A DNA stretch of 24,000 nucleotides from Treponema sp. Lineage in GTDB: Bacteria > Spirochaetota > Spirochaetia > Treponematales > Treponemataceae. The stretch lies in contig JAFLSN010000001.1 in assembly GCA_022510905.1 (NCBI GenBank), positions 181,001 through 205,000 of the forward strand, in the 5' to 3' direction. Under the pieces are notes generated by a model that was given only the letters and a program-made list of their open reading frames with translations, made no database searches and was not told where the DNA came from. Below are positions 813-22,231 of the stretch, piece after piece. A program made the position numbers and the translations under genes. How positions within the stretch are numbered: the stretch's first letter is position 1; each line of letters opens with the position of its first letter.

Positions 813-1188
813 GCTGTTCCACATGTTTCAAAACAAATATGCAATGCGTAAAAGCGGAATGACGGCTGCGCTATAGTTCAAGTCCGAATAAGCATACAAA
901 ACCCCATACACCCGAACACTTGCTATTCAGATTCAGCATAGCCGCTAATTTTGGCACAGCCTGCACCACCGAATCATTGCACAAAACTGCTGAAACGATA
1001 CGCTCACCTTTGTCCACAAGTTTCAGCCTTCATTAAAAGTATATAGCACCTTTTTTAATAATGCAAATGCTTTTGCTTTCTGCGCCATTCTTGCCATAAA
1101 AACCGAACATTCAGCATGAATGAAATGACAAAGTAAACACGCAGCAAAATGCAACCAATGAGCTGTTTTTATCTAATGCTGAATAATT

Positions 1189-1327
1189 GAATCGACACAC
1201 CCGATGCGGGAGATGGGTATTATTTTCTGAAACTTGGTAGCTGAGTGATAAAAATCTTTAGACTTTGTTGGGTGTATTGTTATTATAAAACATTGCAGGC
1301 AAGAGTACATCCCCTTTCCGCACGAAT
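1189..1327 (+). repeat. Intergenic repeat family, long-form copy D (139 nt)
   Basis: Hand alignment to the minus-strand copy at 21010-21237. 5' block gaatcgacacaccc vs gaatcaacacaccc: 13/14. ttttctgaaacttggtagctgagt vs ttttctgaaatttgataactgagt: 21/24. ctttagactttgttgggtgtattgttattataa vs ctttagcctttgccggatgtgttggtcttataa: 26/33. gcaggcaagagtacatcccctt vs gcagccaagggtacataccctt: 19/22. 3' block ctttccgcacgaat: 14/14. Confidence 0.7.
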
Positions 1328-1446
1328 AAAATCTTGTTTACGGTGCCATCAATATTGGCAAAACAACAATGCCGTGCTTTTGCGCACATGTTGCTTTAAT
1401 TTGCCATTCATTGTATTGTTTGTTTTAACAAAAGGATTATGTTTTT

Positions 1447-2466
1447 ATGGAAGCAAAAATAACCAAGTCAGATTTTTCGGACTGTGCCGATTCCATTCAA
1501 AAATGCCGCGCGGAAGCGGCCAAACGCTTGGTGGGACTTTCCTCCATTGTTGACGGAATTATCACTGCGTTTATTTCTGGTGGCCACGTGCTGCTTGAAG
1601 GCGTACCGGGACTTGCCAAAACACTTGCGGTCAAAACTTTTGCAGACCTTTCCGGGCTGGAATACAAACGCATTCAGTTTACACCCGATTTGCTTCCCGC
1701 AGATGTAACCGGCACATTGGTGTACGAACAGGCCACCGGAAATTTTTCAGTACGAAAAGGGCCCGTATTTGCAAACATCGTGCTTGCAGATGAAATAAAC
1801 CGAGCACCCGCAAAAGTGCAGTCTGCGCTACTTGAAGCCATGGCCGAAAAACAAGTTACCATCGGAGATGCCACCCATAAACTGCCACATCCGTTTTTTG
1901 TGCTTGCCACTCAAAATCCTATTGAACAGGAAGGCACATATGGATTGCCTGAAGCGGAATTAGATCGCTTTCTTTTAAAACTGCTTGTACCCTACCCTAC
2001 TCCAGAAGAAGAACTGGAGATTGTAAAAACCAACGGAAATGCCATCGACATCCCAGTAAAAAAAGTATTTCCTGAATCTGTCCTTGCAAAATGCCACGCA
2101 GCTGTTGAAGCCATAACCGTTGACGATGCCATACTGCGTTATATTGTTTCGCTAATAAATGTAACCCGTCCTGCACAAGACACGGAAGCTTCGCGCCACG
2201 CAGCATTTACCACCACGCAGCACCACAGCGACATCCTGCATTATATTTCATTCGGAGCTTCTCCACGGGCAGGCATCGCTCTGCTTAGGTGCGCAAAAGT
2301 ACAGGCCCTGTTCGCAAACCGAAGTTTTGTGTTACCTGAAGATGTGCAGGCTGTTGCAAAACCTGTTCTGCGCCATCGTCTGGTGCTTGGCTACGAAGCC
2401 GCCGCAGATGGTGTAAGCGCCGATGATTTGATTGGAAAAATTGTGGACGTGGTTCCAATTCCATAA
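1447..2466 (+). CDS. moxR: MoxR-family AAA+ ATPase (first gene of Bat-type operon)
   Basis: 339 aa ORF starting at ATG 1447. Walker A GHVLLEGVPGLAKT, Walker B/sensor region VLADEINRAPAKVQSALLEAMAE.QVTI, and FFVLATQNPIEQEGTYGLPEAELDRF, typical of the MoxR/RavA AAA_3 family. Followed 3 nt later by a DUF58 gene, the canonical MoxR partner. Confidence 0.95.
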   Translation: MEAKITKSDFSDCADSIQKCRAEAAKRLVGLSSIVDGIITAFISGGHVLLEGVPGLAKTLAVKTFADLSGLEYKRIQFTPDLLPADVTGTLVYEQATGNFSVRKGPVFANIVLADEINRAPAKVQSALLEAMAEKQVTIGDATHKLPHPFFVLATQNPIEQEGTYGLPEAELDRFLLKLLVPYPTPEEELEIVKTNGNAIDIPVKKVFPESVLAKCHAAVEAITVDDAILRYIVSLINVTRPAQDTEASRHAAFTTTQHHSDILHYISFGASPRAGIALLRCAKVQALFANRSFVLPEDVQAVAKPVLRHRLVLGYEAAADGVSADDLIGKIVDVVPIP

Positions 2467-2469
2467 GCC

Positions 2470-3345
2470 ATGAACAAAACATCGCTTGCAAAACGTGCCT
2501 ATCTTTTAAATCTCCATGCGCTGTCGTTGGCAGAAGGTATGCGTAGCGGAACATTCAAATCAGTATATCGCGGGCAAGGAGTTGAATTCAGCGGTGTACG
2601 AGAATACCTTCATGGCGATGATGTGCGCACTATCGACTGGAATGTTACTGCACGCATGGGAAGACCTTTCATAAAACAGTTTGAAGAAGAACGCGAGCTT
2701 TCGGTATTCCTTGTTGTTGACGCTTCATTTTCGATGGATGGCGGTTCTGGAAAGCAATCACGTTTTGAAACTGCATTCGAATGTGCATCGCTACTTGCAA
2801 TGGCCGCCACACAAAACAACAGCCCATTAGGAGCCGTTGTTTTTGACGGACGCATTTCATTCTTCTGCCCACAAAAAACAGGCAAAGATCATGCTCTCAT
2901 GATTCTATCTCGATTTGACCATGCAGCGCAAAACCGCATTTCTGGTTCGGTGCTGCAAACTGCATTGGAAGGCGTATGGAAAGTTCTAAAAAAACGCACA
3001 CTCGTTGTAGTTATTTCAGACTTTCGCACAAATGGTTGGGTGCAGCCATTGGCACGGCTGGCTTTGCATCACGATGTGCTTGCCGTGCGCATAACGGACG
3101 CGCTAGATAAACAGCTTCCCCGTATCGGCACCGTTCCATTTGCAGACCCGGAAACGCATTTTTTGGGTCTGTTACCAACTTCATCTGCAAGCTTTGCCCA
3201 GGAATGGCGTGAATATAATCACATGCATGTACAGCGCTGGCAAAAAGATTGTCTTCGCCATGGAGCAGTGCCGCTAATCATCGGAACCGAACATGATGTG
3301 GCCGCAGAACTTGGTGCATTTTTTGCCTCCAAGGAGTTTGCATGA
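2470..3345 (+). CDS. DUF58 domain protein (MoxR-associated, degenerate VWA-like)
   Basis: 291 aa ORF. Motifs GVEFSGVREYLHGDDVRTIDWNVTARMGRPFIKQFEEERELSVFLVVDASFSM are the signature DUF58 region as I recall it. The stop overlaps the next start (ATGA at 3342-3345). Confidence 0.9.
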   Translation: MNKTSLAKRAYLLNLHALSLAEGMRSGTFKSVYRGQGVEFSGVREYLHGDDVRTIDWNVTARMGRPFIKQFEEERELSVFLVVDASFSMDGGSGKQSRFETAFECASLLAMAATQNNSPLGAVVFDGRISFFCPQKTGKDHALMILSRFDHAAQNRISGSVLQTALEGVWKVLKKRTLVVVISDFRTNGWVQPLARLALHHDVLAVRITDALDKQLPRIGTVPFADPETHFLGLLPTSSASFAQEWREYNHMHVQRWQKDCLRHGAVPLIIGTEHDVAAELGAFFASKEFA

Positions 3346-4418
3346 AAAGTGCTACTTTTTTGCGGCTTGTGGTCTGGGCGCTGTTCTTTCTGAACTGTAT
3401 ATCAATCAATGCCCAGCAGATTGAAAACACCCGGCAAGTGCTTGTTCCTAAAGAAGTATTTGTTGGTGATTCCGCACATATCATATATTCATTCCGCTCA
3501 CCAGCTGATTTTTTTGACTGTGTTCCTTCTTCTCGCATCAAAAATGATTCGCTTATTCTTTCACCTGCATTACCAGCGTTTACTTCTGTGGCAAACCGTT
3601 GTACAATTTCCGAAGCCACAATCTCCCGCAACGGGCTGAACTATGTGCTCGACATCACCATAATTCCTTGGGAACCCGGTACCATACAGATTCCACCATT
3701 TGACTTGTACGCGGCCTGCCGTTTTTTACCCACTGAATCTGATTCACCAGAAACTTCACAACAACAGCCGCTTCCAACTTGCACCATTTTGCTCGAACCC
3801 ATAAACATCGCCTCGCTTGCTGAACGGCTGGGAGCCTCGCAGCTTCGTCCACCAGCCGCACCACTCATGTTGCCTGGCACAAAGTACATTGTATGGTCGC
3901 TGATTGTCATTGTAATTGCGATGCTATTGGGACTGGGATTCTTAGTTGTACACTTTTCGCTATTCATAAAAAAAATAAGGACGTTAAGAAACACGCTGAG
4001 CCGTCAATGGAATGTGAGACTTACAAAACACCGTTTGCGTTTGCTTTTAACCAAACAAACCACCGACAAAGAATTTGCGGCGCGGTGGCAGCAAACAATG
4101 CGCACTTATCTTACCAACCGATTCTGCGCTTCTTATCAATCGGTTGCGGTAAAGCATCTCGTCACGTTTACCAATGAGCTTACCGGAAACATGCTAAGCT
4201 CGTTCCAAGAAAACGCTGCGATACAAGTGTATTCACTTTTTGTCAGAACGGACTATATCCGATATGCACAAGGCTCTCTTGATTCCCGACAGATTCCACA
4301 AAGCAAACACGAAGCCTGTTTTGCAGAAGACGAACGGCAGCAAGTTGTAGACCAGACAATTCAGTGTGTTGCTGACTTTGAACGTAGCGATGAGCCAAAG
4401 GAGACAATGCATGATTGA
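3342..4418 (+). CDS. Bat-operon membrane protein: secreted BatD-like N-terminal domain + TM + DUF4381-like cytoplasmic tail (assignment tentative)
   Basis: 358 aa ORF with RBS AAGGAG at 3331-3336. Signal peptide MKSATFLRLVVWALFFLNCISINAQ and a single TM YIVWSLIVIVIAMLLGLGFLVVHF. The tail RLRLLLTKQTTDKEFAARWQQTMRTYLTNRF resembles the DUF4381 pattern found in the third gene of Bacteroides Bat operons. Translationally coupled to both neighbours. Confidence 0.75.
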   Translation: MKSATFLRLVVWALFFLNCISINAQQIENTRQVLVPKEVFVGDSAHIIYSFRSPADFFDCVPSSRIKNDSLILSPALPAFTSVANRCTISEATISRNGLNYVLDITIIPWEPGTIQIPPFDLYAACRFLPTESDSPETSQQQPLPTCTILLEPINIASLAERLGASQLRPPAAPLMLPGTKYIVWSLIVIVIAMLLGLGFLVVHFSLFIKKIRTLRNTLSRQWNVRLTKHRLRLLLTKQTTDKEFAARWQQTMRTYLTNRFCASYQSVAVKHLVTFTNELTGNMLSSFQENAAIQVYSLFVRTDYIRYAQGSLDSRQIPQSKHEACFAEDERQQVVDQTIQCVADFERSDEPKETMHD

Positions 4419-5412
4419 ATTTGAAAATCCTGCGGCGTTCTTTTTACTGCTGCTCATTCCTGCGCTGTATTTTTTGCGGGCAGCACATATTTTTACGCGC
4501 ATGACATTTCCGCTGGTACTTGCAGACTGGAACGGTTCCCAGTTTGAATGGAAAAACGGTCTACGTTCTTTTTTTTCAGGATTTGTTCAAGTGCTGATGA
4601 TATGCAGCTTTGTATGCACGATTATCGCCTGTGCAGAACCGGTAGTGCACCACCAAGAAAAAGTATATTCATCCCGAGGCGCAGACATCCTGTTTGTGAT
4701 TGATACAAGTCCTTCCATGGCGGCCCGCGACATTGCAGGCACCAGCAGGATTGAAGCCGCAAAGCAAGCCATTGCCGTGCTTGCGCAGCAAAACAGCGGT
4801 GCAACCGTAGGACTGGTTCAGATGGCAAAAGATGCGGCGCTTGTGGTTCCACCAACAATGGAACGTTCCGCATTTTTTACAAGGCTTGAATCGCTGATAG
4901 CAGGTGAACTGGGCGATGGCACAGCGATTGGCACCGGAATAAGCTATGCAGTCTATCATCTTGAATCATCGCAATCTCCCAAAAAAAGCATTGTGCTTAT
5001 CACTGATGGTGAAAATAACGCAGGAGCCATTCATCCACTTACGGCCGCACATCTTGCAAAAGAAAAAAATATTTCGTTGTATGTGCTTGGCATTGGAACC
5101 CGAGGACGTGTTTCAATTGAATATGTTGATCCAAAAACAGGCCGAGTTTATTCCGGGGATTTTGATTCAAACTATGATATTCATAAATTAGCCCAGATAG
5201 CGACAGAAGCCAACGGAAAATTTTTCACCATAGAAAACATGTCTGACCTTTCGCAGGCGCTTGAATCTGTGAGCAAAAACGAAAGCGTTGCACAAAGCTA
5301 CCACCTCAAAAATCATGACGCGCAATATTACAGGCAATTCTTGTATTTGGCGGGACTTCTTGCCATACTCGCATGGATCATACGAAGTTTGGTTCTTCGG
5401 GAGGTGCTATGA
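4411..5412 (+). CDS. batA: BatA-type VWA domain membrane protein
   Basis: The ORF track gives 4366..5412. I prefer ATG 4411 (MIEFENPAAFFLLLLIPALYFL, typical BatA N-terminus) with RBS AAGGAG at 4397-4402; it overlaps the upstream stop by 8 nt. MIDAS motif DTSPSM (DxSxS), ITDGENNAG, and a C-terminal TM YLAGLLAILAWIIRSLVL. Confidence 0.9.
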   Translation: MIEFENPAAFFLLLLIPALYFLRAAHIFTRMTFPLVLADWNGSQFEWKNGLRSFFSGFVQVLMICSFVCTIIACAEPVVHHQEKVYSSRGADILFVIDTSPSMAARDIAGTSRIEAAKQAIAVLAQQNSGATVGLVQMAKDAALVVPPTMERSAFFTRLESLIAGELGDGTAIGTGISYAVYHLESSQSPKKSIVLITDGENNAGAIHPLTAAHLAKEKNISLYVLGIGTRGRVSIEYVDPKTGRVYSGDFDSNYDIHKLAQIATEANGKFFTIENMSDLSQALESVSKNESVAQSYHLKNHDAQYYRQFLYLAGLLAILAWIIRSLVLREVL

Positions 5413-7028
5413 ATTTTTCTTGTGAACGCCCCGCAGTTTTTTATGCCTTGTTCCTGCTCATTCCTGCGCTGCTGTATGCGTTGCTTTCATACCGCCGTTT
5501 TGTTTTCAGCCTTGTGGAATACAACAGCATACAAAAAAAATCATATGCATTGCACAAGCTTCACTTGAGATTCACAATGCGCACCATATTGCGTAGCCTT
5601 TCATTTGCGTTGCTTGTGGTGGCAGCCTCCGGTATTTCTTGGGGAACAAATTTAGTACCCGTGCAAAAAAACGGACAGTCGATTTCCTTGGTGTTTGACA
5701 TTTCGTACAGCATGGAGGCAAAAGACGCGCCCGGCGGTATGTCACGGCTTGAATCTGTTGCAAGCTATGCCAACGAACTGCTTGACCATTTGCAAGGTAC
5801 AAGTATTTCGGTAGTGCTTGCAAAAGGCAACGGCATTATTGCGATTCCTCTCACCGAAGACCTGGAAGCCATTCGTTCTCTTTTGCCATCGCTTTCTCCG
5901 CTGCTTATGACTGCGGAAGGCTCCAGCCTTGGAAGCGGCATTTCCATGGCAATCAATTCATTTCCAACACAATCCGCAAACAGCTCGTGCATATGGCTGT
6001 TTACCGATGGTGAAGAAACAGACGGCACCCTTTTAGCTTCGTTACAAAATGCTGTCAAGTATGGCATTTCAGTAGTGATTGTCGGCTTTGGTTCAGAACG
6101 CGAAAGTGAAATCTTAGCTGGCGATGGAAAGACCGTGATAAAAACAGCGCTCCGTTCCAATGCACTGGAAAAATTGGTCGCCACTATTTCAAAAGAAACA
6201 GAAAAAAGCAAGCACGGCAGAGAAAGCGCCCAGGTTTCTTACATCGATGCCTCGGAGCCAAGTTCGGCATGGAAACTGCTGCACATGCTGCAAGAACCAA
6301 GCAAAAACGGACAACCTGCCATCGCATATGAAATAAAACAAGTGAGCCACCACACGCTTTTTATTGCGCTTGCAATCGTGTTTTTTGCAGCATCGTTTTT
6401 GTTCAGTGAACTTGACTTTGGAAAAAGAACAAAGCGGACTGCAATACTTTTTGTACTGTGCCTTGCGTTTACATCCTGCACACCCCGGCTAAAAGATGGT
6501 GAAAAAATACTCAAAGGCCGCCTTGAATGGAACCGAAAACATTACCAGCAGGCAGTGGTTTATTTTTTGCAGGCCGCCGACAATTCCGAACGGCGTGGCG
6601 ATTGGTTATGTGCCAACTATGCCCTGTACGGACTTGCAGTCACTTATCTTATGCAGGAAGAAGACGAAGCCGCCCAACAACGTTTTGAACAGATTGCAGC
6701 CAACGCCCCTCCTTCCGTGCAATTTGCCATTCTGTACAATTCTGGAATTATCGCACACAAAAAAGGTGACTACGCGCTGGCAGCTTCGTGTTTCCGAAAC
6801 GCTCTCAAAATCGATAGCTCAAGCAACAATGCAAAAATCAACCTGGAGCTTTCCTTGCGTGAAGATTCGCTGCAAAGTCGAGCGCAGGAACAGGAACTTC
6901 AGCCAATTTCAGAAAATTCAGAAGAGCACACTCTTGAACAGGTGCTGTTTTCAATCATCCGTGAAAACGAGGAAAATCAATGGAAAAACCAGCTTCAGCA
7001 TTCCGAGCATTCAGCCCGCGATTATTAA
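5409..7028 (+). CDS. batB: BatB-BatC fusion: VWA domain membrane protein with C-terminal TPR region
   Basis: The ORF track gives 5373..7028. I prefer ATG 5409 (MNFSCERPAVFYALFLLIPALLY) with RBS GGGAGG at 5398-5403 and an ATGA overlap with the batA stop. MIDAS DISYSM and FTDGEETDG, then TM HTLFIALAIVFFAASFLF, then TPR-like repeats (HYQQAVVYFLQA..., YALYGLAVTYLMQEEDEAAQQRFEQI, ILYNSGIIAHKKGDYALAASCFRNALKID). Confidence 0.9.
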   Translation: MNFSCERPAVFYALFLLIPALLYALLSYRRFVFSLVEYNSIQKKSYALHKLHLRFTMRTILRSLSFALLVVAASGISWGTNLVPVQKNGQSISLVFDISYSMEAKDAPGGMSRLESVASYANELLDHLQGTSISVVLAKGNGIIAIPLTEDLEAIRSLLPSLSPLLMTAEGSSLGSGISMAINSFPTQSANSSCIWLFTDGEETDGTLLASLQNAVKYGISVVIVGFGSERESEILAGDGKTVIKTALRSNALEKLVATISKETEKSKHGRESAQVSYIDASEPSSAWKLLHMLQEPSKNGQPAIAYEIKQVSHHTLFIALAIVFFAASFLFSELDFGKRTKRTAILFVLCLAFTSCTPRLKDGEKILKGRLEWNRKHYQQAVVYFLQAADNSERRGDWLCANYALYGLAVTYLMQEEDEAAQQRFEQIAANAPPSVQFAILYNSGIIAHKKGDYALAASCFRNALKIDSSSNNAKINLELSLREDSLQSRAQEQELQPISENSEEHTLEQVLFSIIRENEENQWKNQLQHSEHSARDY

Positions 7029-8353
7029 CCTGCACAGTGCTGGCAATTTTGTGCGGCACAAGTTTGAATGCACGACCTTCCGCAGAACAAATTCGTTCGC
7101 TTTTATTCAGAGCGGTGCAAAACCCTTTTTTTGTTGGTGCTGAAAACGAAGTCATGCTGGAAATCCCGGAACTTGCTCCAGATAAAGTGCAGATTGTCTC
7201 CGATTCACTTTCCGAAAATGTGGCGCTGCTTTCATCCCGAAAAGAAAAATCGCTTCTTGCAAATGGCACAGCCGGCACAACAATACATGTGTGGCTCAGG
7301 TTTTTAAAACCGGGTTCGTATGAACTTTCCCCGTTCAAGGTTCGCATTTACGGGAAGACCTACGACATTCCTGTTCAGCCTATAACGGTTTTTGAAAATC
7401 CGCAGTTGATTCAGCCAGAGCTTTTTGCAGTAGTGGAGCAACCGCATGCACACAATGCAAAACAGCGTTTTGAAGTTTCCGCAGCCACGCATATTATTTT
7501 TACGGTGTACATTCGCTATGCTGTTCAGATTGTAAGCTTTTCCTGGAACATTCCGCAGAATTCATTGTTTTCAGAAATTTGCCGCTACGAAATTACCGAA
7601 GGAATTCCCCGTGGCACAGAATTTTCGCAAAAGGCAGAGCCGGTCGCACGTTTTGACTGGCAGCCTCTTGTGCAGGGGGAATATGAAATTCCTTCGCTGT
7701 CTGTAACCGCAACAGCATACAATGGAAGCCGCATAGAACTAACACTTCCTCCGCAATCATTTTTTGTGGGGCCTATGAAAGAGCCTGATGAAAAACCACA
7801 AAAAACTGAACAGGTATTTGCCTATGCATTCAGCGAGCCACAGCCAGATGAAACACTAAAGTCTGTGAAGCCTGTTCAATTTGAAAATCTTGCAGAACTG
7901 CTTTCGTTACGCCAAAGTGAACGCCATTCTTTTCCTTTTAGCAAGCATTCCAAAAAACGCAGTGAATGGGAAACTGCCGCAGGACTCGCGCCGGGCCCTG
8001 CGGAACCAAGCGTTCCACTGTTTGCACTGTTCGAAGTGTTTTCTGCGGCAAGTCTTATTGCCACAGTGCTTTTATTTGTATTCAAAAAAAAACAGGCAGC
8101 CTTGTGGTGCCTGATATGCTGCCTGCCTTGCACCTGCGGCTCAATTTTGCTTGGAATGCAGGTGTGCACAAAAACCGCGCTATTTGCTGGCGGTGAAATA
8201 AACGCAATTCCAGAATTGCATCGGACATCCGATGTAACGGTGCAGGCAGGAAGCAGAGTGCTGGTAAAACAACAAGCAGGCAGCTGGGCCTACATAAAGT
8301 ACAACGACATTCTGGGCTGGGTTCCACAAAATACACTGTATATCATCCAGTAA
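6980..8353 (+). CDS. batD: BatD-BatE fusion: secreted oxygen-tolerance (BatD-like) repeats, two TM segments, C-terminal bacterial SH3 domain
   Basis: 457 aa ORF with RBS GAGGAA 5-6 nt upstream of ATG 6980; overlaps the batB/C end by 49 nt. Signal peptide LLTCTVLAILCGTSLNA. TMs VPLFALFEVFSAASLIATVLLFVF and ALWCLICCLPCTCGSILLGM. C-terminus VTVQAGSRVLVKQQAGSWAYIKYNDILGWVPQNTLYI is SH3b-like. Confidence 0.85.
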   Translation: MEKPASAFRAFSPRLLTCTVLAILCGTSLNARPSAEQIRSLLFRAVQNPFFVGAENEVMLEIPELAPDKVQIVSDSLSENVALLSSRKEKSLLANGTAGTTIHVWLRFLKPGSYELSPFKVRIYGKTYDIPVQPITVFENPQLIQPELFAVVEQPHAHNAKQRFEVSAATHIIFTVYIRYAVQIVSFSWNIPQNSLFSEICRYEITEGIPRGTEFSQKAEPVARFDWQPLVQGEYEIPSLSVTATAYNGSRIELTLPPQSFFVGPMKEPDEKPQKTEQVFAYAFSEPQPDETLKSVKPVQFENLAELLSLRQSERHSFPFSKHSKKRSEWETAAGLAPGPAEPSVPLFALFEVFSAASLIATVLLFVFKKKQAALWCLICCLPCTCGSILLGMQVCTKTALFAGGEINAIPELHRTSDVTVQAGSRVLVKQQAGSWAYIKYNDILGWVPQNTLYIIQ

Positions 8354-12702: not shown

Positions 12703-12758
12703 GGTTCGTTTTGCGGAATGCTGAAGACCAAGTTTTTATCAGTCAAATCTGAAACAAC
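12703..12758 (-). repeat. Degenerate copy E of the intergenic repeat family
   Basis: The minus strand reads gttgtttcagatttgactgataaaaacttggtcttcagcattccgcaaaacgaacc. It shares tttc.ga..ttg..tgataaaaa with the core of copies D/B, and cttcagca / ttccgcaaaacgaacc with the 3' block (compare ctttcagcacaaacc in A and ttccgcacaaacc in C). Similarity is weak outside these blocks. Confidence 0.3.
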
Positions 12759-14120: not shown

Positions 14121-14147
14121 GAACATACCTCGCGTAGTGATAGATGC

Positions 14148-14176
14148 AGTATAACTCAAACCGCCTGCAAGGTAAA
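14148..14176 (-). promoter_or_regulatory. Candidate sigma70-type promoter for the flavin reductase-like gene (TTTACC-17-TATACT on the minus strand)
   Basis: The minus strand reads tttacc (14176-14171), a 17 nt spacer, tatact (14153-14148), about 28 nt upstream of ATG 14120. Confidence 0.35.
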
Positions 14177-14187
14177 TGCCGATTCTT

Positions 14188-14297
14188 GGTTCATGCGGAA
14201 AAGAGCTAACAATGCCGTTTGAAAATAGTCCAGAAGCGTTTTTTATGCTTAAGCATTCTTAACCTGCGCAGTGCCGCTTGAATGCGTTGCAAGTAGT
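14188..14297 (-). repeat. Degenerate copy F of the intergenic repeat family
   Basis: The minus strand reads actacttgcaacgcattcaagcgg...cattgttagctcttttccgcatgaacc. It retains caacgca..(t)tc..gcgg of the 5' block, the cattg spacer motif, and the 3' block cttttccgcatgaacc (compare cttttccgcacaaacc in copy C). It also holds a perfect 12 bp palindrome ATGCTTAAGCAT at 14246-14257. Confidence 0.4.
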
Positions 14298-14350
14298 TTT
14301 CATGCTTAATTCTATCGCTCCTGGATATTTCAGCTTCAAAATTCCAGAAA

Positions 14351-19713: not shown

Positions 19714-19864
19714 AAAATGCCTCTGAAAAAATGGATGAAAGTCAGGAAAAACTGATGGCACTCCACACTGCATGGTGGCGCGTCATACGGTGGTTCCAAA
19801 ATTATAAAACCAGTATACAAGAAAACCTCTTTTTTTGGAAGTAGGAGGTTAATTCCAATGCGAG

Positions 19865-19967
19865 CAGAATCAACACACCCCAACGCAGAATTCGGGTATG
19901 TTTTTTTTGGAACTTGGCAGTTGAACGGTAAAAAACATTGAAATATGTGCCCTTTCAGCACAAACCA
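19865..19967 (+). repeat. Intergenic repeat family, medium-form copy A
   Basis: cagaatcaacacaccccaacgcagaa matches copy B 24/26. gggtatgttttttttggaacttggcagttgaacggtaaaaa aligns with D gggtattattttctgaaacttggtagctgagtgataaaaa. aacattg, then a variant 3' block ccctttcagcacaaacc. Confidence 0.6.
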
Positions 19968-19986
19968 ATTTACAAGCTCCGTGTGC

Positions 19987-20015
19987 TTGACGAGTTCCAT
20001 TCACTTTACTATAGT
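19987..20015 (+). promoter_or_regulatory. Candidate sigma70-type promoter for the substrate-binding protein gene (TTGACG-17-TATAGT)
   Basis: TTGACG at 19987-19992, a 17 nt spacer, TATAGT at 20010-20015. RBS GAGGA at 20038-20042 and ATG at 20051. A second perfect TATAAT at 20029-20034 has a poor -35 and would truncate the RBS. Confidence 0.5.
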
Positions 20016-20050
20016 TTAAAAAGATTTTTATAATCAATGAGGACATAATT

Positions 20051-21001
20051 ATGAGAAAATTTGTATCTGTTTTTGCCGCAGTATCGCTGGCCGTATTGTG
20101 TGCCAGCTGTTCTGACAACAAAAAAATCAAGATTGGCATTGTGCAGCTTGTTGAGCACCCTGCGCTTGACGCTTCGTACCAAGGTTTTGTTGACGGCCTT
20201 GCTGAAGCCGGCTATATTGACAAAAAAAATATCAAGCTTGATTATCAAAACGCCCAAGGCGAACCTTCAAACTGTGTGACCATAGCACAAAAACTTGTAG
20301 CAGACCGTGATGATCTTATCCTTGCAATTGCGACTCCCGCTGCGCAGGCCGTAGCAAACTTGACCACCACCATTCCAATTGTTATCACCGCCGTGACAGA
20401 TCCGGAAACATCGCAGTTGGTAAAAAGCAACGCCAATCCACAAACAAACGTGACCGGAACTTCTGACCTTACCCCGGTTTCGGCCCAGATTGATTTGCTC
20501 AAACAGATTTTTCCAGATGCACAAAAGGTGGGGCTTTTGTATTGTTCAAGTGAAGAAAATTCCCGCTTCCAGATTAACATGGCAAAAGAAGCATGTGACC
20601 GCGTGGGACTTCAATATGTTGATGCCACAGTTTCCAATACAAACGAAGTCCAGCAGGTAGTGCAAAGTCTCGTGGGAAAAATTGACGTCCTTTATTCACC
20701 TACAGACAATATGATTGCAAGCTGCATGGCCACCGTAAGCATGGTCGCAAACGAAAATAAAATTCCCATGATTTGCGGCGAAGACGGCATGGTGCAGGGA
20801 GGAGGGCTGGCCACATATGGCATAAACTATTATGCGCTCGGCAAACAGACTGCAAAAATGGCTGTTGAAATTTTGCGCGACGGAAAGAATCCCGCAGACA
20901 TGCCCATCCAGTATGTTGAAGAATGTGTCTTTTCTTACAATAAAGACACCGCGGAGCAGCTTGGAATAACCATTCCACAGGAACTGCTTGATTCAATATA
21001 A
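20051..21001 (+). CDS. ABC transporter substrate-binding lipoprotein, COG2984/ABC_sub_bind type; no permease or ATPase gene adjacent
   Basis: 316 aa with signal peptide MRKFVSVFAAVSLAVLCASC. KIGIVQLVEHPALDASYQGFVDGLAEAGY, ILAIATPAAQAVAN, IPIVITAVTDP and NVTGTSDL are the hallmark blocks of this family as I recall them. Confidence 0.9.
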   Translation: MRKFVSVFAAVSLAVLCASCSDNKKIKIGIVQLVEHPALDASYQGFVDGLAEAGYIDKKNIKLDYQNAQGEPSNCVTIAQKLVADRDDLILAIATPAAQAVANLTTTIPIVITAVTDPETSQLVKSNANPQTNVTGTSDLTPVSAQIDLLKQIFPDAQKVGLLYCSSEENSRFQINMAKEACDRVGLQYVDATVSNTNEVQQVVQSLVGKIDVLYSPTDNMIASCMATVSMVANENKIPMICGEDGMVQGGGLATYGINYYALGKQTAKMAVEILRDGKNPADMPIQYVEECVFSYNKDTAEQLGITIPQELLDSI

Positions 21002-21009
21002 TTATTCTG

Positions 21010-21237
21010 ATTCGTGCGGAAAGAGTACATAACGTACTTCTGCGAAGCCAGCCCCCGGCTTGAAGCCTTGCTGCTACAAGTATGGGGGAGGGGCAAAATG
21101 AAGGGTATGTACCCTTGGCTGCGATACCTTATAAGACCAACACATCCGGCAAAGGCTAAAGGGTTCTTTATCACGACTCAGTTATCAAATTTCAGAAAAA
21201 TCATATCCGCCTTTTGCGTTAGGGTGTGTTGATTCTG
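21010..21237 (-). repeat. Intergenic repeat family, long-form copy B (inverted orientation, with an internal insertion of about 85 nt)
   Basis: The reverse complement reads cagaatcaacacaccctaacgcaaaaggcggatatgatttttctgaaatttgataactgagtcgtgataaagaaccctttagcctttgccggatgtgttggtcttataaggtatcgcagccaagggtacatacccttc, then [about 85 nt], then gttatgtactctttccgcacgaat. It is collinear with copy D (see that feature). The 3' block is present 1.5 times: gggtacataccctt, then atgtactctttccgcacgaat. Its 3' end lies 8 nt from the stop codon of the convergent binding-protein gene. Confidence 0.7.
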
Positions 21238-21245
21238 TTGCGTAC

Positions 21246-21280
21246 AAGCCGCCATGCAATTTTATGGCGGCTTTATTCAT
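21246..21280 (+). terminator. Rho-independent terminator-like hairpin
   Basis: aagccgccat (21246-21255), an 8 nt loop gcaatttt, atggcggctt (21264-21273), followed by tattcatttt. GC-rich 10 bp stem with a U-rich tail on the plus strand only. Confidence 0.55.
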
Positions 21281-21337
21281 TTTACCTTATTCAGCCCACC
21301 ACTTAACTTTTGAACCAACGCATGGTATGATGTGGCC

Positions 21338-21673
21338 ATGAACGCAATGCCAGCTTTTTTTGTGCAGAAAAAAAATCAGCTGATATTTGTATATGCGCTG
21401 CTTTATACCGGACTTACCGCCCAGGAAGCGGAACATGTTGCCGACCAAACAGTTGGCGATTTAGGTAGCGATTTACGTTTGGCACTGGCAGATGTGCTCT
21501 CTGATTTTTCGTTTAAGATAAACGGCGTTCTAAAGTTATTTAAGGCAATTCGTATTGTATTTATTGTGCTCGGCTGCATTGCGACAGTCGCCATACTTTT
21601 TATGCTGGTACAGATGTTGCTGAAAATTCGGACACGACGTCTCCAGGCATCGCAATTCAAAAAAAATGATTGA
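21338..21673 (+). CDS. Hypothetical small membrane protein (N-terminal signal/TM and C-terminal TM)
   Basis: Track ORF 21332 (GTG)..21673; the first ATG is at 21338. MNAMPAFFVQKKNQLIFVYALLYTGLTAQEAE..., and a C-terminal IRIVFIVLGCIATVAILFMLVQMLL followed by a basic tail. No convincing RBS and no recognisable family. Confidence 0.4.
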   Translation: MNAMPAFFVQKKNQLIFVYALLYTGLTAQEAEHVADQTVGDLGSDLRLALADVLSDFSFKINGVLKLFKAIRIVFIVLGCIATVAILFMLVQMLLKIRTRRLQASQFKKND

Positions 21674-22049
21674 GCGTGCAAGAGTCGTTTGCGCTACAGT
21701 CAATAATAAAAAAATCTGAAGTCGTGCTTCAAAATACAGAATCGTTTCAGTAATTGTGAAAGCCGGCCATAGTTTGCAAAAAATTGACAACAAACTGATA
21801 TGCGATCAAAGCCAAAAACAATTCCAGATAAATTGGCAAAGCGATATTCAGAATTGCAAATGAACTCTACCCAGCATGAACCTGCCAGCGGTTTACATCA
21901 AAGTTTTGTGGCTTTGCAGTTCTGCCTACATTAGCTGGAAACAATCTGTTTGACTTTTCATGCAAGCGGCATTTTTAAAAGAAATGCTGCACGCCCGCGC
22001 TGTTCCTGGCCAGCATTCGGCTTTCAAAAATTTTATCCAGCTTCTTTCT

Positions 22050-22123
22050 CAAAATCAACACATCCCAACGCAAAATCAAGACTTTATTTCATGAAACGGA
22101 GTATGTACTTTTCCGCACAAACC
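22050..22123 (+). repeat. Intergenic repeat family, short-form copy C (5' block joined almost directly to 3' block)
   Basis: aatcaacacatcccaacgcaaaa matches copy B 21/23. After about 25 nt comes ggagtatgtacttttccgcacaaacc, which aligns with the 3' blocks of D (agagtacatcccctttccgcacgaat) and B (gttatgtactctttccgcacgaat). Confidence 0.5.
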
Positions 22124-22231
22124 AAACATTAGATTTGCTTTTTCAAGTTGATTTTGGACTGGCGCCCGTCTGCTGTACTATCGGTTCATACCCCTTTGCA
22201 TTCTGTGCGTTTTGTTTTATAATCGTAACAG

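What the first reader, a model, noticed from the sequence alone, without database searches (positions are those of the whole stretch)
1189..1327. Dispersed, apparently structured intergenic repeat family (4 clear and 2-3 degenerate copies in 24 kb); this is the cleanest long form
A sequence family recurs only in intergenic DNA, on both strands.

Copies:
- D: 1189-1327 (+).
- A: 19865-19967 (+).
- B: 21010-21237 (-).
- C: 22050-22123 (+).
- Degenerate copies at 12703-12758 (-) and 14188-14297 (-).
- Possibly 905-1020 (+).

Shared blocks:
- 5' block: GAATCAACACACCCYAACGCARAA.
- Core (long and medium forms): TTTCTGAAAYTTGRTARCTGAGT..GATAAA.
- CTTTAGMCTTTG..GGRTGTRTTG.
- 3' block: GTAC.YCTTTCCGCACRAAY.

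By-eye identities are 13/14, 21/24, 26/33, 19/22 and 14/14 between D and B, 24/26 between A and B, and 21/23 between C and B. These are far beyond chance for a 24 kb window.

The 5' block can pair with an internal block. In D, ACACCC 1197-1202 pairs with GGGTGT 1270-1275, extendable to about 9 of 10 positions. In B, CAACACACCC pairs with GGATGTGTTG, again about 9 of 10, with different positions mismatched. That is what a conserved helix would look like.

I see no terminal inverted repeats, no target-site duplication and no conserved peptide, so it is not a classical MITE or a small ORF. Candidates are a paralogous sRNA or 5'-leader family, a REP/ERIC/Correia-like element, or a recombination or protein-binding module. 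I do not recognise it as any known RNA family.
Basis: seen in the sequence. Interest (0 to 1): 0.7.

Follow-up and report, generated by a model that had tools for sequence, protein, structure and literature searches.

The report
Small dispersed intergenic repeat in Treponema
The window, from an uncultured gut-type Treponema, carries a real family of short non-coding repeats (about 60-230 bases) scattered in the gaps between genes; it looks like a lineage-specific selfish repeat of the MITE/BOX/ERIC kind, not a structured RNA or a gene leader.

Summary
The repeat family is real. Four copies in the window are confirmed statistically: D 1186-1332+, A 19863-19972+, B 21240-21004-, C 22047-22129+. 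The other two (12703-12758 and 905-1020) are no better than chance.

Walking into flanking contigs of the same organism found two more complete copies. That makes 6 complete and 1 degenerate copy in 51.5 kb, all in the 11% that is intergenic.

Every copy has the same 5' block (CAGAATCAACACACCCYAACGCARAA) and the same 3' block (GTAYRTRCCCTTTCCGCACGAATCA), on one strand and in one order. The interior varies from about 15 to 180 nt.

Copies lie in convergent, divergent and co-directional gaps, on both strands. A and C lie upstream of the predicted promoters. B lies between a stop codon and its terminator. A leader or promoter role is therefore excluded.

The RNA-structure idea finds no support. 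Rfam gives no hit, fold z-scores are ordinary, and there is no consensus fold and no compensatory pair.

No copy was found in about 106 kb from related Treponema, nor in the genome, metagenome, viral, plasmid or phage collections.

Best reading: a lineage-specific, decaying, non-autonomous dispersed repeat without terminal inverted repeats, mobilisation unknown. It is ordinary in kind and modest in interest.

The parts
1186..1332 (+). Copy D, medium-long form (about 145 nt). 5' block at 1186-1228. Internal inverted-repeat partner GGGTGTATTG at 1270-1279. Degenerate sub-terminal palindrome AAGAGTACATCCCCTT. 3' block at 1300-1334. Lies in the divergent gap, 120 nt upstream of the MoxR/Bat operon ATG (1447).
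   Evidence: blastn D-B E=1e-18; nhmmer E=3e-47 (a member of the model); block HMMs E=1.9e-8 and 6.3e-8; present in all 3 strains
14185..14297 (-). Copy F, degenerate. The 3' block TTTTCCGCATGAACCA is recognisable and there are remnants of the middle block. Lies in the co-directional gap between CreD and the flavin reductase gene. This is the most strain-variable intergenic stretch.
   Evidence: 3'-block HMM E=0.006; local score above 300/300 shuffles; sister strain L002 retains GACTTTGCAACTTG, which matches D; 34 variable columns in 230 nt
19863..19972 (+). Copy A (about 105 nt): 5' block, core TTGGAACTTGGCAGTTGAACGGTAAAAAA, then directly the 3' block (CCCTTTCAGCACAAACCA). Lies in the divergent gap between ackA and the orphan ABC substrate-binding gene, upstream of the predicted promoter of that gene.
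   Evidence: (I1); promoter-like site TTGACG-17-TATAGT at 19987-20015
21004..21240 (-). Copy B, the longest form (about 235 nt). It holds the 5' block, the core, the inverted-repeat partner GGATGTGTTG, the palindrome AAGGGTACATACCCTT, an extra block of about 85 nt with the hairpin AAGCCGGGGGCTGGCTT (shared only with copy E), and the 3' block. It lies antisense, between the stop codon of the substrate-binding gene (21001) and that gene's terminator.
   Evidence: terminator-like hairpin at 21246-21273 on the + strand; B positions 182-248 match copy E at 84%, E=2e-13
22047..22129 (+). Copy C, short form (about 80 nt): 5' block, about 24 nt, then GTATGTACTTTTCCGCACAAACCA. Lies upstream of the predicted promoter of the DUF2804 gene.
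   Evidence: (D16, I4); promoter-like site at 22195-22223
19987..20015 (+). Context, not part of the family: sigma-70-like promoter of the substrate-binding gene, downstream of copy A.
   Evidence: consensus match only
21246..21273 (+). Context: intrinsic-terminator-like hairpin (11 bp, then a T-rich tail) of the substrate-binding gene. Copy B sits between the stop codon and this hairpin.
12703..12758 (-). Not supported as a family member.
   Evidence: not found by nhmmer at E<10; local score p about 0.07-0.19, like the controls
905..1020 (+). Not supported.
   Evidence: p about 0.6-0.8 against shuffles; no HMM hit

Best explanation
This is a lineage-specific family of small, non-coding, dispersed DNA repeats in an uncultured Treponema. 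Its acetate kinase is 87% identical to those named T. bryantii and T. porcinum.

**Anatomy (shown).** Each unit is polar. It has a fixed left end (CAGAATCA-ACACACCC-YAACGCARAA) and a different fixed right end (GGTAYRTACC-CTTTCCGCAC-GAATCA). The interior is optional and modular, so units range from 62 to about 235 nt.

**Origin (inferred).** Most likely these are old, decaying copies of a non-autonomous selfish element. It would have spread into intergenic DNA through an enzyme encoded elsewhere in the genome.

**Size variation (inferred).** Deletions between short internal direct repeats (GGGTATG / GGTATGTACC and GTAC..CCCTT) and a nested extra block would then have produced the size classes.

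**Mobilisation (speculative).** The ends are not inverted repeats and the unit has polarity. The hexamer GAATCA, or a near variant, stands at both termini. The mobilising activity is therefore more likely a strand- or site-specific one (HUH/IS200-IS605/RAYT-like, IS110-like, or a site-specific recombinase using GAATCA as cleavage or crossover core) than a classical DDE cut-and-paste transposase.

**Effects on neighbours.** Any effect on neighbouring genes, such as B inside a 3' UTR, would be incidental.
For: - **Always complete units.** Six units were found in 51.5 kb of the host genome. Each 5' block is paired with a 3' block on the same strand and in the same order, and there are no solo ends. 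Sizes are 62, about 80, 105, 125, 145 and 235 nt.
- **Spread beyond the window.** Copies were found at -10.7 kb (H, L021:7314-7378) and +4 kb (E, L003:18020-18149).
- **Intergenic only.** All 7 copies are intergenic, p about 2e-7. Together they make up about 15% of the intergenic DNA.
- **Placement is indifferent to transcription.** Two copies lie in convergent gaps, two in divergent gaps and three in co-directional gaps (two sense, one antisense).
- **Homology stops at the ends.** Flanks score at the null level.
- **Not coding.** All six frames are full of stops.
- **Lineage-specific.** There are 0 copies in about 106 kb from 7 related Treponema loci, where about 12 would be expected at the host density. 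Only chance matches turned up in 185,579 species-representative genomes, JGI metagenomes, IMG/VR, plasmids and phages.
- **No sign of constraint.** Among three strains (98.7% identical), 5.3% of element columns vary, against 3.9% for other intergenic DNA and 1.4% for coding DNA.
- **Deletion junctions fall at short direct repeats.** This is read from the alignments.
Against: - No terminal inverted repeats and no variable target-site duplication.
- No empty site or presence/absence polymorphism was seen. All copies are fixed in the three strains available.
- No autonomous parent element or transposase lies in the 51.5 kb sampled.
- Only about 2% of a genome could be read, so genome-wide copy number is an extrapolation.
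- Copies are 25-35% diverged and none are near-identical, so recent mobility is not shown.
- A, B and C cluster within 2.3 kb, and A and C share end variants. That could reflect local duplication or gene conversion.
Confidence: 0.6

Rival explanations
1. A family of paralogous small RNAs or cis-acting RNA elements. The conserved 5' and 3' blocks would be functional RNA segments, and the long forms would fold through the 5'-block/GGRTGTRTTG helix.
For: - The unit has polarity and conserved ends.
- In the two long copies the first roughly 100 nt can form an extended imperfect hairpin. In strain L001 this folds with z=-3.5.
- Five of seven copies point the same way as the next gene downstream.
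Against: - No Rfam match overlaps an element, even at E<=10.
- Other folds give z from +0.2 to -1.9 on either strand.
- There is no consensus fold (-1.36 kcal/mol) and there are 0 compensatory pairs.
Five of seven copies lack the partner block altogether.
- The alternative 5' hairpin is 70.6% paired, against 67.5% in shuffles.
- No conserved promoter precedes the units and no terminator follows them.
- Strain variation is as high as in other intergenic DNA.
- The family is absent from related species.
Confidence: 0.12
2. DNA-level protein-binding or recombination modules. The blocks would be sites for a regulator, a nucleoid protein or a site-specific recombinase. One example is invertible segments bounded by oppositely oriented copies: A/B around the substrate-binding gene, and B/C around the 113-aa ORF.
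For: - A near-perfect 16-bp palindrome, AAGGGTACATACCCTT (B), sits just before the 3' block. Variants are AAGGTATATGCCTT (H) and GGTATGTACC (E).
- The 5' block contains AATCAA, which resembles an IHF half-site. This resemblance rests on my own knowledge of the consensus and was not tested.
- A and B form 71-nt inverted arms around one gene. B and C form 26-nt arms at 88% (I1 and I4).
Against: - Copies occur where there is nothing to regulate, namely in convergent gaps.
- Spacing between the blocks varies about tenfold.
- Flanking genes are functionally unrelated: Bat/MoxR operon, ABC binding protein, DUF2804, flavin reductase, proC.
- All assemblies show the same orientation of the A-B and B-C segments.
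- The palindrome is degenerate in D and A.
- Sequence variation shows no constraint.
Confidence: 0.13
3. Purely local history. A few segmental duplications or gene-conversion events within this roughly 40-kb neighbourhood copied one intergenic sequence, with no dedicated mobility or function.
For: - A, B and C lie within 2.3 kb.
- A and C share the right-end variant CACAAACCAA, and A, B and C share the best-matching 5' blocks.
- No copies were detected anywhere outside this organism.
- Only 51.5 kb of the genome could be examined.
Against: - Seven separate intergenic sites over 39 kb, on both strands.
- Each copy has sharp ends and flanks that are not homologous. Segmental duplication would carry flanking sequence along.
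- Every new stretch of flank examined on the left added a copy at about the same density.
Confidence: 0.1

Closest known systems
Pneumococcal BOX elements (boxA-boxB(n)-boxC)
   Same: Both are short, non-coding and intergenic. Both have a fixed 5' module and a different fixed 3' module with a variable modular interior, so the size is variable. Both are lineage-restricted, occur on either strand, and have no associated transposase nearby.
   Different: There is no sequence relationship that I could test. BOX boxA and boxC are partly complementary and fold together, whereas here the 5' and 3' blocks do not pair. BOX variability is copy number of one module, whereas here it is deletion or insertion of different blocks. 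The host phylum differs (Spirochaetota versus Bacillota).
ERIC/IRU and Correia (NEMIS) elements, i.e. bacterial MITE-like repeats
   Same: Size of 60-230 nt, intergenic restriction, size classes produced by internal deletions or insertions at fixed points, and occurrence inside 3' UTRs. In the long forms there is an imperfect palindrome of about 100 nt (5' block against the GGGTGTGTTG block).
   Different: ERIC and Correia are defined by terminal inverted repeats, and Correia also by a TA duplication. Here the true termini are not inverted repeats, and the inverted partner is internal and missing from most copies. There is no variable target duplication.
IS200/IS605-derived PATEs and REP/RAYT systems (HUH single-strand transposition)
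   Same: No terminal inverted repeats, no target duplication, a polar unit with different left and right ends, sub-terminal palindromes, and a short conserved sequence at the left junction that resembles the right terminus (GAATCA).
   Different: The left and right hairpins are not alike, as they would need to be for one TnpA. The left-end hairpin is weak. There is no GTAG or CGTC tag as in REPs. No TnpA or RAYT gene is seen in 51.5 kb. The Rfam families for IS605-type RNAs gave no hit.
Integron attC sites (Treponema denticola has a chromosomal integron; from my own knowledge)
   Same: Variable-length imperfect palindromes with conserved ends, in a Treponema. YYYAAC occurs in the 5' block.
   Different: Copies lie on both strands and among housekeeping genes, not in a one-directional cassette array. 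The core sites RYYYAAC and GTTRRRY are not both present. No integrase lies nearby.

Membership tests
Classical MITE | Terminal inverted repeats at the two ends of the unit | tested here: not met
   Left end CAGAATCAACACACCC against the reverse complement of the right end TGATTCGTGCGGAAAG: only GAWTC is shared. The only inverted partner of the 5' block is internal, and it is present in only 2 of 7 copies.
Classical MITE | Target-site duplication that differs from copy to copy | tested here: not met
   Flanks of six copies were aligned on the ends and show no copy-specific direct repeat. Instead a constant hexamer, GAATCA or a variant, stands at both termini.
Classical MITE | Multiple short (<300 nt) non-coding copies, mostly intergenic | tested here: met
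   Seven copies of 62-235 nt, all intergenic, with stops in all frames.
Classical MITE | An autonomous IS with the same ends in the genome | not testable with these tools
   Only 51.5 kb of the host genome could be reached, and it holds no transposase. The host is not among the species-representative genomes scanned.
Mobile element in general | Empty sites (presence/absence) in strains or sister species | tested here: inconclusive
   All copies are present in 3 strains at 98.7% identity. Relatives with ackA at 87-91% identity are not syntenic at these sites, so no orthologous empty site could be read.
Structured non-coding RNA family | Match to a described family | tested here: not met
   Rfam 15 gives 0 hits at gathering scores on the whole window. 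No hit overlaps an element at E<=10. As a positive control, tRNAs and SRP RNA were found in the flank.
Structured non-coding RNA family | Conserved secondary structure with compensatory changes | tested here: not met
RNAalifold consensus is -1.36 kcal/mol with 0 compensatory pairs. The 5' hairpin is no better than shuffles, 76/500. Power is low with only 6-7 copies.
Structured non-coding RNA family | Thermodynamic stability beyond composition | tested here: not met
   z-scores run from +0.2 to -1.9 for the whole units on both strands. Only one strain variant of the left arm of B reaches -3.5.
5' leader / promoter-linked cis element | Constant position and orientation upstream of genes, inside the transcript | tested here: not met
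   H and E lie between convergent genes or RNAs. B is antisense, between a stop codon and its terminator. The promoter-like sites for the genes next to A and C lie downstream of the elements.
REP/BIME | 20-40 nt GC-rich palindromes with a GTAG or CGTC head, often in alternating pairs (as described in PMC3733652 and PMC2817692, abstracts seen) | tested here: not met
   The units are 62-235 nt, AT-rich and not simple palindromes, and they carry no GTAG or CGTC tag at the ends.
IS200/IS605-type PATE | Similar sub-terminal hairpins at both ends on one strand, and insertion 3' of a fixed short target | tested here: inconclusive
   A right sub-terminal palindrome is present in B, H and E. The left hairpin is weak and of a different topology. 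A GAATCA-like hexamer at the left junction could be a target, but it cannot be told apart from element sequence.
Integron attC array | Same-orientation sites after each promoterless cassette, with paired core sites | tested here: not met
   Copies lie on both strands, between housekeeping genes that have their own promoter-like sites.

The most novel reading that the evidence does not exclude
The family may be the footprint of a mobilisation system that does not use terminal inverted repeats. That would be a polar mini-element with asymmetric ends and a GAATCA hexamer at both termini, moved by a strand- or site-specific enzyme (HUH-, IS110- or recombinase-type) not yet described in Spirochaetota. 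Alternatively, oppositely oriented copies (A/B, B/C) may serve as substrates for programmed inversions around small genes.
Probability: 0.12. Interest if true: 0.6.

Novelty: new member of a known kind. Interest (0 to 1): 0.3.

Why it matters
Small dispersed repeats are common in bacteria, but I found none described for Treponema in the paper library.

If the family is genome-wide at the observed density (about 1 per 7 kb), it would occupy a sizeable share of this organism's scarce intergenic DNA.

Practical consequences:
- It would be a useful strain or species marker.
- It is a source of assembly breaks and spurious ORF calls.
- It is a possible substrate for rearrangements. Synteny around these genes is poorly conserved among related Treponema.

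Its asymmetric, non-inverted ends make it a slightly unusual example. It might point to a non-DDE mobilising enzyme. None of this is established here.

Tried and rejected
- **Rfam**, at gathering and permissive thresholds: nothing on the elements.
- **Exact-pattern scans.** The 5' block was scanned against species-representative genomes, JGI metagenomes and IMG/VR. The 3' block was scanned against JGI metagenomes. Only a handful of hits appeared, at about the number I estimated for chance. They match the HMM only over the forced pattern. The apparently longer match in L028/L030 adds only about 1.7 bits over a plain chance hit, so I rejected it.
- **blastn of copy B** against plasmids and phages: one 42-nt chance hit and none, respectively.
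- **Orthologous empty sites.** I looked through homologues of the two substrate-binding proteins and of acetate kinase. Relatives are not syntenic at these sites, so no empty site could be read. They do show absence of the family.
- **tRNA-derived (SINE-like) origin.** I considered this because tRNA-Ser 3' ends share CTCTTTCCGC with B. ARAGORN and Rfam see no tRNA in the elements, and a 10-mer match is within chance.
- **ECF-sigma, sigma-54 or sigma-70 promoter inside the unit.** By-eye inspection found no consistently spaced -35/-10 pair across copies.
- **Group II intron ends.** The reverse complement of the 3' block contains GTGCG, but the units are far too short and there is no Rfam intron hit.
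- **Composite transposon A-gene-B.** The flanks share only TGCG, and no permease or ATPase remnant is present. Left as a note.
- **Translated-ORF trick to find more copies.** Abandoned because all frames carry stops.
- **The two 48-aa ORFs** called in intergenic DNA are unrelated to each other.

Full report
**Where the window comes from.** The window matches metagenome contigs (ENA ERZ27293308 and Logan SRR13619861, 100% identical). Homologues of its proteins are labelled Treponema. Its acetate kinase is 87% identical to proteins named T. bryantii and T. porcinum. Two further assemblies, ERZ27293309 and ERZ27293317, are strains 98.7% identical. By looking up window proteins, and one protein reached through a homologue search, I assembled a 51.5-kb composite of the host genome: 18 kb to the left, the window, and 9.5 kb to the right.

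- blastn within the window gives D-B 135 nt at 73% (E=1e-18), A-B 71 nt at 75% (E=4e-10), A-D 82 nt (E=5e-8), and C-A and C-B 26-27 nt at 88-89% (E about 3e-4 to 8e-4). The repeat finder reports the same pairs.
- The 20-nt 5' block occurs three times exactly, against 0.02 expected.
- The 3' block gives 12 matches at up to 3 mismatches, against 3.3 expected. The best five are at D, A, B, C and 14188-14202.
Its score beats 300/300 shuffles. The 3'-block HMM gives E=0.006. A sister strain keeps more of the middle block.
- 12703-12758 and 905-1020 score like control intergenic DNA, and I reject them.

**More copies outside the window.** I found two.
- Copy E lies 4 kb beyond the right end (L003:18020-18149, +). 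It sits after a cluster of four tRNA-Ser genes, one tRNA-Arg gene and the SRP RNA, and before the stop codon of a convergent M48 peptidase gene.
- Copy H lies 10.7 kb to the left (L021:7314-7378, +). It is only 62 nt long and fills most of the 99-nt gap between the stop codons of the convergent proC and acetyltransferase genes.
- HMMs built separately for the two end blocks find six 5' blocks and six 3' blocks. They are always paired on the same strand and in the same order, with no solo ends.
- All seven copies are intergenic, although only 10.9% of the composite is (p about 2e-7).

**Anatomy.**
- The left end reads CAGAATCA(A/G)CACACCCYAAYGCARAA, usually followed by CGGGTATGATTTTT.
- The right end reads GGTAYRTACC-CTTTCCGCAC-GAATCA.
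- Homology between copies stops there. Flank comparisons score at the null level.
- The ends are not inverted repeats of each other. No copy-specific target duplication is seen. Instead a GAATCA-like hexamer stands at both termini.
- The interior is modular.
  - H has almost none.
  - C has about 24 nt.
  - A has a 'core' (TTTCTGAAAYTTGRTARCTGAGT..ATAAA).
  - D adds a block whose GGGTGTATTG is the inverted complement of the 5' block.
  - B adds a further block of about 85 nt with a GC-rich hairpin. The second half of that block recurs only in E (84% over 67 nt).
- Deletion junctions coincide with short direct repeats: GGGTATG against GGTATGTACC, and GTACATACCCTT against GTACTCTTTCC. This is read from the alignments. 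I infer that slippage or recombination made the size classes.
- All six reading frames carry stops.

**Is it an RNA?** I find no support.
- Rfam has no match at gathering scores, and no match overlapping an element at E<=10.
- Minimum free energies are ordinary for the composition: z from +0.2 to -1.9 on both strands.
- RNAalifold finds essentially no consensus fold (-1.36 kcal/mol) and no compensatory pair.
It shows no change on both sides. Two pairs simply break, in different copies, and the G-to-A change that breaks one pair in B is absent from two sister strains. That is how a decaying inverted repeat looks, not a selected helix. Five of seven copies lack the partner block.
- A second candidate hairpin (ACACACCC/GGGTATGT) is paired in 70.6% of cells, against 67.5% in shuffles.
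- With so few copies, the power of these tests is low.

**Is it a leader or promoter element?** No.
- H and E lie between convergent genes.
- B lies antisense between the stop codon of the substrate-binding gene (21001) and a strong terminator-like hairpin (21246-21273).
- The best sigma-70-like sites for the genes next to A and C lie downstream of the elements, at 19987-20015 and 22195-22223.
- The neighbouring genes are functionally unrelated.

**Distribution.**
- The family HMMs find nothing in about 106 kb from seven related Treponema loci. These include lineages whose acetate kinase is 90-91% identical, and the complete genome of T. peruense around one shared operon. At the host's density, about 12 copies would be expected.
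- Exact-pattern scans of one genome per species (185,579 species), JGI metagenomes and IMG/VR, and blastn against plasmids and phages, returned only a handful of hits, about the number I estimated for chance.
- Among the three strains, all copies are present at the same sites. Element columns vary at 5.3%, against 3.9% for other intergenic DNA and 1.4% for coding DNA. So there is no sign of purifying selection and no sign of recent movement.

**Interpretation.** The simplest account is a lineage-specific, old and decaying family of non-autonomous dispersed repeats. In lifestyle it is of the same general kind as BOX, ERIC, Correia and REP elements. It is not a member of any of them, because the defining features I could test (terminal inverted repeats, variable target duplication, REP tags) are not met.

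The polarity of the unit, its unlike ends and the shared terminal hexamer suggest a strand- or site-specific mobilising activity rather than a DDE transposase. This step is inference only. No enzyme, empty site or parent element was seen.

Rivals that remain are an RNA family (0.12), protein-binding or inversion sites (0.13) and purely local duplication (0.10).

**Verdict.** The repeat family is confirmed, smaller in membership than claimed inside the window and larger outside it. 'Structured' is not supported. In kind it is ordinary. It is a new family in a poorly studied, uncultured Treponema, of modest interest unless a complete genome reveals an unusual mobilisation system.

Noticed in passing
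window 19865-21237: The ABC substrate-binding gene (20051-21001) is an orphan, bracketed by oppositely oriented copies A and B (71-nt arms, 75%). Its closest homologues in other Treponema sit in binding-protein/permease/ATPase operons. No permease or ATPase remnant is found nearby. The geometry resembles a composite transposon, but only a TGCG is shared by the outer flanks.
   Followed up: partly
window 21212-22075: The 5' blocks of B(-) and C(+) face each other head-to-head (26 nt, 88%, 812 nt apart) around a 113-aa ORF with no Pfam match and its promoter-like site. The geometry is inverton-like. The orientation is the same in all assemblies.
   Followed up: no
window 14121-14350: This is the most strain-variable intergenic stretch of the region: 34 variable columns in 230 nt, with indels, among strains that are 98.7% identical overall. 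It holds the degenerate copy F.
   Followed up: partly
L018:14896-15666 (about 3.2-4 kb right of the window end): A cluster of four tRNA-Ser genes, one tRNA-Arg gene and the SRP RNA. One gene caller placed a spurious 148-aa ORF across it. The tRNA-Ser 3' ends (CCCCCTCTTTCCGC) share a 10-mer with the 3' block of copy B, probably by chance.
   Followed up: partly
L018:20647-21089: The contigs of three independent assemblies all end within about 1-2.5 kb of the same place. In the one read to its end (L018), that is just after a RelB antitoxin gene. This suggests a repeat or a mobile island at that boundary.
   Followed up: no
L018: about 20130-20460: A tandem repeat with a period of about 41 nt (82-88% between units) inside a 192-aa hypothetical gene.
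   Followed up: no
window 21246-21290 and L021:7284-7312: The left flanks of copies B and H share a hairpin-like stretch, GCCATAAAA..GCAT.G (local score 11, against a null 99th percentile of 9). It may be an additional optional module of the family. In B it doubles as the terminator of the substrate-binding gene. The match is not robust after correction for multiple comparisons.
   Followed up: partly
L020:7362-7381: One strain carries a 10-nt tandem duplication (TTCAGATTCA) immediately after copy H.
   Followed up: no
window 1447-8353: A Bat-like operon: MoxR AAA+ ATPase, DUF58, VWA proteins and a TPR protein, with two members that have no Pfam match (3342-4418 and 6980-8353).
   Followed up: no
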